DNA of 64,000 nucleotides. It comes from Styela clava. Lineage: Eukaryota. Of this stretch, positions 45,001 to 47,506 are shown in pieces. Numbering within the stretch: position 1 is the stretch's first letter; each line of letters starts with the position of its first letter. The stretch covers positions 19,282,001 through 19,346,000 of the forward strand of contig NC_135251.1 of NCBI RefSeq assembly GCF_964204865.1, in the 5' to 3' direction. Position numbers: made by a program.

Positions 45001-47506
45001 AAGTATTGTCTACTATGTTACGTAACAATAGATACGGACACTGCTTAACAGAACGTAAACGCCATAGAAAGACAAAACGAATTTATTGATTCATATTCAC
45101 AACATTTAAGATAAGAAACAATAAAACATTTACAATAAATACCATATGTAAAATATTCATTCATATTTTAGCTAAGTTTAACACAAATTGGTCTTTGGTC
45201 CGCTGCTTTATGCGGTTTCCTCACACCGCGAACCAACGTGTTTGTTTGTTTCCGTCACAAAGCCCCCTGTCTGCGGCAGAGGAGTTAACTTGTTAGGGGT
45301 GTCAGTAACCTTGTTTTGTTTCCTCAGGGAGAAAGCTGTCAATATTTGCCATCTATCTTTGAATGTCATGAATATGCAAATGACATCGACAAAAAGCATA
45401 ATATCTAATGTTGCCGCGCGGATTGAAAAAGGAAAGTGTTTTGGAATTAAGAAGGAATTAATCACAATAAATATGATGTCCGTGAAAACAGCAACACATG
45501 TCCAAGTCAGTAAACGCCGAATAGCCTTTTGTATTTTACCAGGCTTCGAAGTTCCTGTATTGCATAAAAGCGTGATCCATTTAGAGCCTTGGTTTCTTGA
45601 TTTGTAATCCATGGCATCCTTCACGACTGGGTAAACGAACAAGCCAAGAAGGCCGAATTGAGCTAAGACCCCCGGAAGGTACATGATAGGAAACAAGTGT
45701 ATCATTTTGCTTTCAATTACCACACATCCTTGTGATATCGGCTCTTGACGATCAAATATAATAAATATATTTATAAGTAGAATCAAATGCGTAGAAAGCG
45801 TCGCAAATATTCCCCAACTCAAAAAATTGATGAATTTTCCTGTAGTCAGGCTTTGATTATAAACTATTTTTTGTCTCACCCATAAGAAGCAATAAACAAG
45901 ATATATTATAATCAAGTAATAAAACTTTGCCACAGTACCTACTACATTACATAGAAATAAAGAGTTTGCACCTCGAGGTGCCCAGATGTATACTTGCGTT
46001 ATCATGAATTTTTGAATGAGTAATACTGGAACTATCGTATAAATAGTGTGCAAAAGTCTTCCATTGAAAAAGCTTGTCGTTTGCCTGCTTTTCCATTTCC
46101 CATTCTGGATACAGTAGAAAACAAAACTCGCTAACAGCCAGCAGCATAGTAAACAGAGAATTGCTTCAACTGCTTGTGATAACGCCAGTAATACATTGAT
46201 CAAGTAATCGTTCGAATCTCCATCGCTAATGTTGAATGTTTGATTTGATGCCGCTGTCGAATTATCTTCCATAAACGTTTTGTTTGTTGCGGATTCGCTG
46301 GAATTCCAACTGCCATTGTTCAGCATCTGATTTGTAGCGACCGTTTTGTTTCCAAAATTCATTCTATTTTACTTTCGTATCAAACGAGGAAAGAAACCGG
46401 ATTCAAACACATAGTATCATATAAAATTTGCTACTAGCAATTCAGTCTTGTACAAGTACTGACAGTGACAGAAAATACCAGGCAAGGCAATATATATTAT
46501 GAAACACATGCGTTAATTAATAATACATTCGTAAAATCTTATTTCAATAAGTAATTTGTTAGCGTCATAGCGCGGAATAGATACCTTAAGTATGTTGATT
46601 TTGTTCTTAAAATCCCAAAGATCTTTTCAATCTTTTATTGATGATTGTTTCTCACATGTGTTATGGATTACTTTTTAACATTTTTTGTAATGCAATTTTG
46701 CGGCATTTGCAGTAAGACATAAATTCATACGCCTTTTTCAACACCGTGTTGCTCTATTCTTCAATTATTTACTGAAAACCGGATTTTTCCTGGCTTCCTA
46801 TCAGTGGCGTAGCATCCACCCCCGCAACCCCCGCGGTCGCGGGGGTCCCACAGCGAAAAGGGGCCCCAAGCGGTTAAAATTTAGAAATTTAACCGCAAAA
46901 CCAAAAGCTGCATTGCAAAACCAGTAATGCACATCTTATAAAGTTGATGTTAGTTCTGCTCAAATCGTTTTGTTACGTAACAATGCCGGAGTCGTCGATT
47001 TTCGGCGTCGTGTGGTTTGATCGCACCGGCCACCGGCACAATTACGAAGGCTGTCATGATGTCGAAAGCAAAACCTCTTAGTGGCGCACAAAAACGAAGA
47101 ATAAAGGGCAGAAGAGGAAGGACGTATGAAAAAAAATTAAAGCAACCAAGATAAACGAAATATTTAAACCAAAATTGAAACAATTAGACTTGGGAATACC
47201 GAACGTAACTGAGGAGGAATTAAGTCTAGCGTATCGGTAGAAAACCAGATGCGTGTTCAATCTCCAAAAGTGATGGAGCCGGCGCAAATGAATTTCCTTC
47301 CAAAACTTACACGACAATGATCACAGGTAAGCTACTGATTTTTAAAGCAAATTGAAAAAATTGATATGACGAAGATGGTGGCTGAGTTTGCTAACACGAA
47401 AGCGCAAATTTTAGGTTCCCATAGCCTTTTTATAGCGAAATGTTATGTTTTTTGACGAAATAAAAAAAAACTTTGTTTTAGCCTATGCTGTGCGAGGTCT
47501 GATTGA

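What the first reader, a model, noticed from the sequence alone, without database searches (positions are those of the whole stretch)
46058..46362. Near-identical 5' ~300 bp in otherwise diverged paralogs: gene-conversion tract with a sharp edge
The first 101 residues of A and B are identical, with only two silent differences I could see (codons 4 and 82). The upstream flank has more mismatches and indels, and codons after 102 differ by ~22% at protein level. A low-complexity glycosylated N-terminus normally diverges fastest, so recent conversion between the inverted copies is the simplest reading. The result is a constant N-terminus/TM1 on variable receptor bodies.
Basis: partly seen in the sequence, partly recalled or inferred. 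Interest (0 to 1): 0.65.

Follow-up and report, generated by a model that had tools for sequence, protein, structure and literature searches.

The report
Gene-conversion patch in sea-squirt receptor paralogs
Three neighbouring copies of an uncharacterised sea-squirt receptor-like membrane gene share an almost identical first 300 bases, most likely because that stretch was recently copied between them, which is an ordinary process in gene families.

Summary
Window 46058-46362 is codons 1-101 of an intronless 384-aa gene on the minus strand (A, 45208-46362). The near-identical patch is 319 nt (A 46058-46376): 2 of 319 differences in every pair, against 8% upstream, 9.5-14% in the rest of the gene and 13-15% in the 3' flank. 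None of 20,000 permutations reached such a run. The deficit also holds at synonymous sites (dS 0.02-0.03 against 0.17-0.18). The patch lies inside diverged homology on both sides, and A equals the inferred B/C ancestor over 293 nt. This is the classical signature of ectopic gene conversion. B and C share a longer patch (about 925 nt) with the same 5' edge. The protein belongs to a family without a Pfam model whose named relatives are all Styela clava, and its predicted fold is a GPCR-like 7TM. An assembly or polishing artefact cannot be excluded without reads. This is an ordinary phenomenon.

The parts
45208..46362 (-). Gene A: intronless ORF of 384 aa, predicted 7TM protein
   Evidence: ORF list. 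It aligns end to end with the 389- and 391-aa Styela clava proteins P0001 and P0002. The family HMM matches it at E 5.7e-98.
53788..54921 (+). Gene B: 377-aa paralog, head-to-head with A, with an in-frame loss of 7 codons in the C-terminal tail
60707..61861 (+).
46058..46376 (-). Homogenised tract in A: 14 nt of leader plus codons 1-101 and two bases of codon 102. It encodes the N-terminal ectodomain with 7 N-x-S/T sequons, TM1 and the first intracellular loop. The minimal tract, identical to the inferred B/C ancestor, is 46058-46350 (293 nt).
   Evidence: 2 of 319 differences to B and to C. Permutation: 0 of 20,000. Topology from the AF2 model. Sequons.
53774..54092 (+). The same tract in B
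60693..61011 (+). The same tract in C
53774..54699 (+). Longer B-C low-divergence patch: 5 differences in about 925 nt. Its counterpart in C is 60693-61618. It shares its 5' edge with the A tract.
   Evidence: List of B-C difference sites. Regional B-C rates are 0.3-0.7% inside, 2.4% upstream and 4.3-6.7% downstream. The tandem units overall are 95.1-95.5% identical.
44739..46808 (-). Whole segment of A that is homologous to B and C: about 445 nt upstream to about 425 nt past the stop, 88% identical to C overall
46377..46377 (-). 5' edge site where all three copies differ: A has C, B has A (53773), C has G (60692)
46057..46057 (-). 3' edge site where all three copies differ, the third base of codon 102: A has A (Arg), B has C (54093, Ser), C has T (61012, Ser)
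48546..56929 (.). Tandem unit 1, which carries B. Unit 2 (56930 to at least 63594) carries C.

Best explanation
Non-allelic (ectopic) gene conversion produced the tract. A roughly 2-kb segment carrying an intronless 7TM gene exists in three copies: A is inverted and lies head-to-head with B across 7.4 kb, and C is tandem to B. A short patch of about 293-319 bp starts about 14 nt before the start codon and ends inside codon 102. It was copied between A and the B/C lineage by homology-directed repair without crossover, which erased the divergence there. The flanks kept their older divergence. B and C were homogenised over a longer patch with the same 5' edge.

Shown: the patch, its statistics, the deficit at silent sites and the two-sided boundary.

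Inferred: that the mechanism is conversion; that repeated events start near the 5' end of the gene (a polarity gradient), which would explain why divergence rises with distance from the start codon in both directions and in both kinds of pair; and that the genes are functional. The direction of transfer is unknown, and the donor could be a family member outside the window.
For: - Tract against flanks: 2 of 319 differences, against 34 of 421 upstream (p 4e-7), 28 of 295 in bases 306-600 (p 1.3e-7) and 56 of 418 in the 3' flank (p 1.3e-12).
- Permutation of variable sites: 0 of 20,000 reach the observed runs.
- Synonymous sites (Nei-Gojobori): dS is 0.034 (A-B) and 0.017 (A-C) in codons 1-101, against 0.167 and 0.185 afterwards.
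- Tree incongruence: inside the tract each copy has one private change (base 12 in A against B=C, 241 in C, 246 in B). Everywhere else B and C group against A.
- A equals the parsimony ancestor of B and C over bases 13-305.
- Diverged homologous DNA bounds the patch on both sides, so a single crossover or inversion does not explain it.
- Protein constraint alone does not explain it. The two Styela clava relatives differ at 31% of residues 1-101 from each other and at 30% from A.
- The tract has no unusual RNA fold (z -0.25), there is no Rfam match in the window, and no long antisense ORF lies in the tract.
- Conversion between head-to-head neighbours, and regional homogenisation with sharp boundaries, are documented elsewhere: passages of PMC3966223 and PMC1852091.
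Against: - No reads were available, so a consensus or polishing artefact is untested.
- GC3 is not significantly raised in the tract: 45 of 101 against 109 of 283 in A, p 0.29. The signature of GC-biased conversion used in the protocadherin study is therefore absent. The lower 'rest' value printed was out of frame and is withdrawn.
- The N-terminal 101 residues are the best conserved part against the Styela clava relatives, so part of the lack of replacement changes may be constraint.
- The silent-site test alone is modest for A-B (p 0.02).
- Background divergence is uneven. The upstream flank (8%) is less diverged than the 3' flank (13%), p 0.014. This could reflect promoter constraint rather than older conversions.
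- B and C could be two haplotypes wrongly laid in tandem. That would change the B-C reading but not the A-versus-B/C one.
Confidence: 0.75

Rival explanations
1. Assembly or polishing artefact: reads from the three similar copies were mixed during consensus building, so the most similar stretch was made identical in the assembly although the real copies differ.
For: The copies are 88-95% identical over 2 kb or more, a situation in which multi-mapping reads can homogenise a consensus (general knowledge, not tested here). No read data were available.
Against: Each copy keeps one private difference inside the tract: base 12 in A, 241 in C, 246 in B. The edges are single sharp sites with immediate return to background divergence. 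The window has no N. An artefact would not be expected to stop inside 9-12% diverged sequence while leaving B-C differences at 241 and 246.
Confidence: 0.1
2. Chimeric origin rather than conversion. A's 5' end, or that of B and C, was replaced in a partial duplication or template-switch event at the time the copies formed, or all three copies received the patch from a fourth family member outside the window.
For: The star-like relation of the three copies in the tract, with one private change each, fits a common outside donor as well as exchange among the three. Detached copies of promoter plus the first 22 codons at 51811-52157 and 59036-59389 show that this 5' piece has been moved or broken off before.
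Against: The patch lies in collinear homologous sequence on both sides without any junction, indel or filler. That is what homologous repair gives. An outside donor would still be gene conversion. The family HMM finds no other family member in the window (3 of 3 hits are A, B and C).
Confidence: 0.08
3. Nucleotide-level purifying selection: the first 300 bases carry an overlapping function (RNA structure, translational control, antisense transcript or enhancer) that forbids even silent change.
For: The region is the best conserved part of the protein against the Styela clava relatives. The proximal upstream 187 nt is also only 5.3% diverged.
Against: The predicted fold of the tract RNA is no better than its shuffles: z -0.25, with 45 of 100 shuffles folding as well. 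There are no Rfam matches and no ORF of 100 aa or more antisense to the tract. The detached 5' fragments differ from A at 8 of the first 66 coding bases, some of them silent (read from the alignment), though these fragments are probably dead. Constraint would not give a step from 0 to about 11% divergence at a single base.
Confidence: 0.04

Closest known systems
Regional gene conversion in clustered protocadherin variable exons of fugu and zebrafish (PMC1852091; abstract and passages read)
   Same: Membrane-receptor paralogs lying close together share one region at more than 99% nucleotide identity, with a boundary inside the coding sequence, while the rest stays diverged. The argument from synonymous sites is the same.
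   Different: In the fish it is the 3' part of the exon, it affects many paralogs per subcluster, and GC3 is significantly raised. Here it is the 5' end, only three copies are involved, and GC3 is not significantly raised.
Conversion between adjacent inverted or head-to-head paralogs, such as the C. elegans hsp16 and hsp70 pairs (review PMC3966223; passages read)
   Same: Neighbouring paralogs in opposite orientation a few hundred bases to a few kb apart, with short tracts in the range of hundreds of bases.
   Different: Those cases mostly homogenise the whole unit. Here only a 5' patch of about 300 bp of a 2-kb repeat is affected, and a third tandem copy takes part.
5' polarity of recombination started by double-strand breaks near transcription start sites in budding yeast, and 5' hotspots in the maize A1 and B1 genes (review PMC6215864; abstract and passages read)
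   Same: Here divergence is lowest at the start codon and rises with distance on both sides, for A against B/C and for B against C alike. The two patches share a 5' edge.
   Different: Those gradients were measured for allelic meiotic recombination. Here the exchange is between paralogs, and no break site has been mapped. The link is an inference.
G-protein-coupled receptor superfamily (7TM fold)
   Same: The predicted structure has an extracellular glycosylated N-terminus, seven helices, a hairpin in the second extracellular loop and a short eighth helix. Conserved cysteines sit at the top of helix 3 and in that hairpin. All 47 listed Foldseek matches in the PDB are GPCRs.
   Different: No Pfam GPCR model matches A, B or C at E up to 1 apart from a sub-threshold GPR_Gpa2_C hit on B and C (E 0.09-0.11). 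None of the 34 relatives scanned matched any Pfam family at E up to 0.001. Foldseek E-values are no better than 1.6e-3 and query TM-scores are 0.30-0.47. No class can be assigned, and signalling is untested.

Membership tests
Ectopic (interlocus) gene-conversion tract | A stretch significantly more similar between paralogs than the homologous sequence on both sides | tested here: met
   2 of 319 differences, against 34 of 421 upstream and 28 of 295 downstream. 0 of 20,000 permutations reach the run lengths.
Ectopic (interlocus) gene-conversion tract | The excess similarity holds at synonymous and non-coding sites, not only at the protein level | tested here: met
   dS is 0.017-0.034 in codons 1-101 against 0.167-0.185 afterwards. 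Fisher p is 0.02 (A-B) and 0.0015 (A-C). The non-coding flanks are 8% and 13-15% diverged.
Ectopic (interlocus) gene-conversion tract | The relationship of the copies inside the tract conflicts with that outside | tested here: met
   Inside the tract the pattern is star-like, with one private change per copy. Outside, B and C group against A at about 165 sites.
Ectopic (interlocus) gene-conversion tract | Paralogs are more alike than orthologs in the tract at the DNA level | not testable with these tools
   No nucleotide sequence of the Styela clava relatives or of any other tunicate was reachable. At the protein level only: paralogs are 100% identical in residues 1-101, against 70% to P0001 and P0002.
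Ectopic (interlocus) gene-conversion tract | The copies are truly distinct in the genome (read-level support) | not testable with these tools
   No reads were available. The only indirect evidence is the private variants at bases 12, 241 and 246.
Ectopic (interlocus) gene-conversion tract | Raised GC3 in the converted region. This is a supporting feature of repeated biased conversion, not a defining one. | tested here: not met
   GC3 is 0.446 against 0.385 in A (p 0.29), 0.446 against 0.377 in B (p 0.24) and 0.455 against 0.364 in C (p 0.12).
GPCR superfamily | Seven transmembrane helices with the N-terminus outside | tested here: met
   AF2 model with mean pLDDT 81 and pTM 0.79. Helices are 50-87, 101-131, 135-170, 176-203, 221-256, 276-305 and 312-332, plus 337-341. 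Seven N-x-S/T sequons lie in residues 5-46. This is a prediction, not an experiment.
GPCR superfamily | Conserved cysteine pair linking the top of helix 3 to the second extracellular loop (that this pair typifies GPCRs is recalled, not from a call) | tested here: met
   C138 is invariant in 89 of 89 aligned family members and C213 is present in at least 90%. Their positions at the helix 3 start and in the 206-215 hairpin come from the model. The bond itself is inferred.
GPCR superfamily | Significant sequence match to a curated GPCR family model | tested here: not met
   Pfam: no GPCR family at or above its cut-off for A, B or C. 0 of 34 relatives match any Pfam family at E up to 0.001. NCBIfam: nothing meaningful. 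A PDB profile search found no GPCR. hhalign against the window's own rhodopsin-type receptor gave probability 0.6%.
GPCR superfamily | Structural match to solved GPCRs | tested here: inconclusive
   All 47 listed Foldseek hits are GPCRs of classes A, B, C, F and adhesion. However, 0 hits have E at or below 0.001, query TM-scores are 0.30-0.47 and rmsd is 6-13 A.
GPCR superfamily | Ligand-dependent G-protein signalling | not testable with these tools
Rhodopsin-like class A GPCRs | D/E-R-Y at the end of helix 3 and N-P-x-x-Y in helix 7 (motifs recalled from general knowledge) | tested here: not met
   The family's conserved residues at the end of helix 3 are W161, R163 and Q164. No N-P-x-x-Y occurs in helix 7 of A (sequence, helix limits).

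The most novel reading that the evidence does not exclude
The patch is not a single accident. It would be the youngest product of a recurrent conversion hotspot anchored at the start codon: a 5' polarity gradient acting between paralogs. The hotspot would keep one shared module (glycosylated ectodomain, TM1 and first intracellular loop) constant across members of a GPCR-fold family that has no Pfam model and whose named relatives so far are all Styela clava, while the helix bundle diverges. This would be a small-scale counterpart of the regional concerted evolution of clustered protocadherins. The sites at both patch edges where all three copies differ could then be scars of error-prone repair at tract ends.
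Probability: 0.15. Interest if true: 0.5.

Novelty: new member of a known kind. Interest (0 to 1): 0.3.

Why it matters
Mostly as a caution and a small case study. Anyone building trees or dating duplications in this family must mask the 5' 300-900 bp, because there the copies look about ten times younger than they are. The locus is also compact enough for testing in a tunicate whether exchange between paralogs starts at gene 5' ends. The host gene belongs to a sizeable family that no Pfam model covers and whose named members are only called 'uncharacterized'. That may interest people cataloguing tunicate receptors. The conversion itself is a well-known process.

Tried and rejected
- **RNA structure in the tract.** z is -0.25, against -1.65 for the next 318 nt. 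Rejected.
- **Known RNA families.** 0 Rfam matches in the whole window.
- **GC-biased conversion signature.** Not significant. My first GC3 figure was computed out of frame and is withdrawn.
- **Positive selection on the 'variable bodies'.** dN/dS is 0.61-0.66 overall and 0.91 for codons 102-200, never above 1. dN is below dS with p 0.04 (A-C) and 0.08 (A-B). The A-C replacements are spread over helices and loops at 0.11-0.28 per residue (none in the 3-residue first extracellular loop), with no excess in extracellular loops. No support.
- **Family assignment by sequence.** Pfam, NCBIfam, a PDB profile search and hhalign to the neighbouring rhodopsin-type receptor gave nothing significant.
- **More family members in the window as possible donors.** The family HMM against the six-frame translation found only A, B and C. 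tblastn added only the two 22-codon fragments.
- **Literature.** Four searches and passages of the Ciona GPCR survey PMC2396169 turned up no description of this family or of this conversion. That survey's supplementary lists of 'other/unclassified' receptors could not be opened and might bear on it. A term search inside PMC3924837 found nothing.
- **Not run:** Complex prediction, the viral fold library, and genome contigs (bacteria and archaea only). None bears on the question.

Full report
**What the window is**

The sequence is eukaryotic, 31-40% G+C, with no N. It carries a non-LTR reverse transcriptase, a Mos1-type transposase remnant and a rhodopsin-type receptor. The gene in question finds only two proteins in the 5.8-billion-protein set. 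Both are 'uncharacterized' Styela clava proteins, at 58-60% identity. I therefore take the source to be an ascidian related to Styela but not Styela clava itself. Nothing suggests human DNA. The three genes are single-exon, so no spliced model was needed or built.

**The observation**

Window 46058-46362 is bases 1-305 of a 384-codon ORF on the minus strand, gene A (45208-46362). It has two paralogs:
- B: 53788-54921, plus strand, 377 aa, head-to-head with A across 7.4 kb.
- C: 60707-61861, plus strand, 384 aa.

B and C sit in two tandem units that are 95.1-95.5% identical overall (48546-56929 and 56930 to at least 63594). A shares about 2 kb with them, from about 445 nt upstream of the ATG to about 425 nt past the stop, at 88% identity.

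A-B differs at base 12 (codon 4) and base 246 (codon 82), both silent, as reported. C has a private V81I change at base 241. The near-identical run extends 14 nt upstream of the ATG. It is 319 nt long: A 46058-46376, B 53774-54092, C 60693-61011.

**Is it more than chance?**

Differences per aligned site, for A against B and A against C:

| Region | A-B | A-C |
|---|---|---|
| Upstream flank | 34 of 421 | 35 of 422 |
| Tract | 2 of 319 | 2 of 319 |
| Bases 306-600 | 28 of 295 | 28 of 295 |
| Bases 601-900 | 36 of 300 | 36 of 300 |
| Bases 901-1155 | 29 of 234 | 36 of 255 |
| 3' flank | 56 of 418 | 64 of 418 |

I permuted the variable sites 20,000 times over the whole homologous span, over the CDS only, and over upstream plus tract only. 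No permutation reached the observed run lengths. Fisher tests of the tract against each neighbour give p from 1.2e-3 (the proximal 187 nt upstream) to 1.3e-12 (the 3' flank).

Nei-Gojobori estimates give dS of 0.034 (A-B) and 0.017 (A-C) in codons 1-101. Afterwards dS is 0.167 and 0.185, with dN 0.110 and 0.113. The synonymous contrast alone has p 0.02 and 0.0015.

The 3' edge is sharp. After base 305, differences fall at 306, 317, 330, 331, 342 and 357, which is the background rate at once.

**Pattern among the three copies**

Inside the tract each copy has one private change. A is identical to the parsimony ancestor of B and C over bases 13-305, which is 293 nt. Outside the tract, B and C agree against A at about 165 sites. 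So the tract has a different history from its flanks. It is bounded by diverged homologous DNA on both sides. That makes it a patch, which is what conversion gives. A single crossover between inverted repeats would only swap ends.

B and C share a longer patch of low divergence: 5 differences between the sites at -14 and 913. Its rates are 0.3-0.7%, against 2.4% upstream, 4.3-6.7% downstream and about 5% for the units as a whole. Permutation p for this patch is 0.0015 or less.

For both kinds of pair, divergence is lowest at the start codon and rises in both directions.

**Alternatives tested**

- *Protein constraint.* Residues 1-101 are the best conserved part against the Styela clava relatives: 70% identity, against 56-58% for residues 102-340 and 39-46% for the tail. 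It does hold for the 84 distant members, where the N-terminus is largely unalignable (occupancy 0.39). But 30% divergence between species, and 31% between the two Styela clava paralogs, shows that constraint cannot give 0 changes in 101 residues plus a silent-site deficit.
- *RNA structure.* z is -0.25.
- *Known RNA families.* None in the window.
- *Antisense ORF.* None of 100 aa or more in the tract.
- *GC-biased conversion.* GC3 is 0.446 against 0.385, p 0.29. It is not significant, and this counts mildly against repeated biased conversion (which corrects an out-of-frame figure).
- *Assembly or polishing artefact.* Not testable here. The three private variants and the single-base edges argue against it but do not exclude it.

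**What the gene is**

A, B and C match no Pfam family above cut-off. A full HMMER scan of 1.84 billion representatives finds 248 relatives at E up to 0.001, 51 at up to 1e-10 and 3 at up to 1e-30. None of the 34 that I scanned has a Pfam match at E up to 0.001. Of 10 clusters looked up, 4 carry a name, and all four are 'uncharacterized protein' of Styela clava. The other 6 are unnamed contigs.

An AlphaFold2 model built on an 89-sequence alignment has mean pLDDT 81 and pTM 0.79. It shows a disordered N-terminus, seven long helices, a hairpin between helices 4 and 5, and a short eighth helix. All 47 listed Foldseek matches in the PDB are GPCRs of several classes. The matches are weak: best E is 1.6e-3 and query TM-scores are 0.30-0.47.

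C138 is invariant, and C213, W161, R163, Q164 and D295 are at least 90% conserved. The ESM Atlas's nearest clusters are chordate, lack Pfam domains, and one is auto-named 'Serpentine receptor class gamma' (score 0.96).

I conclude that the fold and topology are GPCR-like but that no class can be assigned. 'Receptor' remains an inference. The tract encodes the ectodomain (seven sequons), TM1 and the first intracellular loop. It ends at the start of helix 2.

**'Variable bodies'**

Body dN/dS is 0.61-0.66. The 63 A-C replacements after residue 101 are spread evenly over helices and loops. B and C bodies are nearly identical. Diversifying selection is not shown.

**Mechanism proposed**

Homology-directed repair without crossover between the inverted neighbours copied about 300 bp. 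The same 5' region was also exchanged between B and C. Divergence forms a gradient around the start codon, and the two patches share a 5' edge near -14. Both features suggest that events start near the 5' end of the gene, as recombination does at yeast transcription start sites and at some maize genes (PMC6215864, abstract and passages). This step is inferred, not shown.

Conversion between head-to-head neighbours, and regional homogenisation with intragenic boundaries, are documented (PMC3966223, passages; PMC1852091, abstract and passages). The direction of transfer and the donor are unknown. A donor outside the window is possible.

**An unexplained detail**

The first variable site beyond each edge of the tract is a site where all three copies differ:
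- 5' edge: window 46377 (A), 53773 (B), 60692 (C).
- 3' edge: window 46057 (A), 54093 (B), 61012 (C).

Only 5 such sites exist among about 218 variable sites in the 2-kb span. The post-hoc chance that both edges fall on them is about 4e-4 to 7e-4. I have no tested explanation.

**What stayed unchecked**

- Reads were not available.
- The rest of this genome could not be searched for other family members.
- Paper supplements were closed.

**Verdict**

This is a real and statistically secure conversion-like patch, correctly read by the first stage in its core. It is an ordinary phenomenon in a little-known gene family.

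Noticed in passing
window 46377 / 53773 / 60692 and 46057 / 54093 / 61012: Both edges of the homogenised tract are sites where A, B and C each carry a different base. Only 5 such sites occur among about 218 variable sites in the 2-kb homologous span, so the post-hoc chance is about 4e-4 to 7e-4. This might be repair-associated mutation at tract ends, or coincidence.
   Followed up: partly
window 48546-56929 and 56930-63594: Two tandem units are about 95% identical, differ by an extra piece of about 1.2 kb in unit 1 (48806-49979), and contain a 99.5% identical patch over the 5' 900 bp of genes B and C. 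In a heterozygous genome these could be two haplotypes laid in tandem rather than true duplicates. This was not testable here.
   Followed up: partly
window 51811-52157 (-) and 59036-59389 (-): Detached copies of the gene's upstream region plus its first 22 codons, 76-79% identical to A. Homology ends abruptly after codon 22, so these are probably relics of older broken copies.
   Followed up: partly
window 46488-46672, 50063-50541, 57271-57753, 53489-53649: The stretch about 125-310 nt upstream of the three genes is a dispersed repeat (76-84% identity). It has inverted pairs at 50105-50281/50345-50505 and 57313-57493/57557-57712, so it may be a small mobile element supplying part of the promoter region.
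   Followed up: no
window 46808-48100: Homology between A and B/C ends at a G+C-rich palindromic stretch (about 46808-46880). It is followed by a decayed Mos1/mariner-type transposase (HTH_48 at 47537-47854, E 1.3e-7). A transposon may mark or have caused the repeat boundary.
   Followed up: no
window 54837/54838: Gene B lacks 7 codons in frame in the cytoplasmic tail (A residues 351-357) that A and C keep.
   Followed up: no
window 41841-42509: A tandem array of a 169-bp unit, 4.0 copies, 97% matches.
   Followed up: no
window 34786-37376: A 289-aa serine/threonine-rich secreted-looking ORF (weak mucin-like hit). It is followed 200 nt later by an intronless 505-aa rhodopsin-type receptor (7tm_1, E 1.2e-28) that is unrelated in sequence to A, B and C.
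   Followed up: no
window 6489-8588 (-) and 201-1755 (-): A 699-aa ORF with a reverse-transcriptase domain (RVT_1, E 2.3e-32), likely a non-LTR retrotransposon. There are also ORF pieces with a weak histidine-phosphatase match, probably exons of a host gene.
   Followed up: no
proteins P0001-P0151 (relatives of genes A, B and C): The gene family has 248 representatives at E up to 0.001, yet none of the 34 scanned has a Pfam match at E up to 0.001. Every named member seen is an 'uncharacterized' Styela clava protein. It is a sizeable GPCR-fold family that appears uncatalogued in the four literature searches I made.
   Followed up: partly
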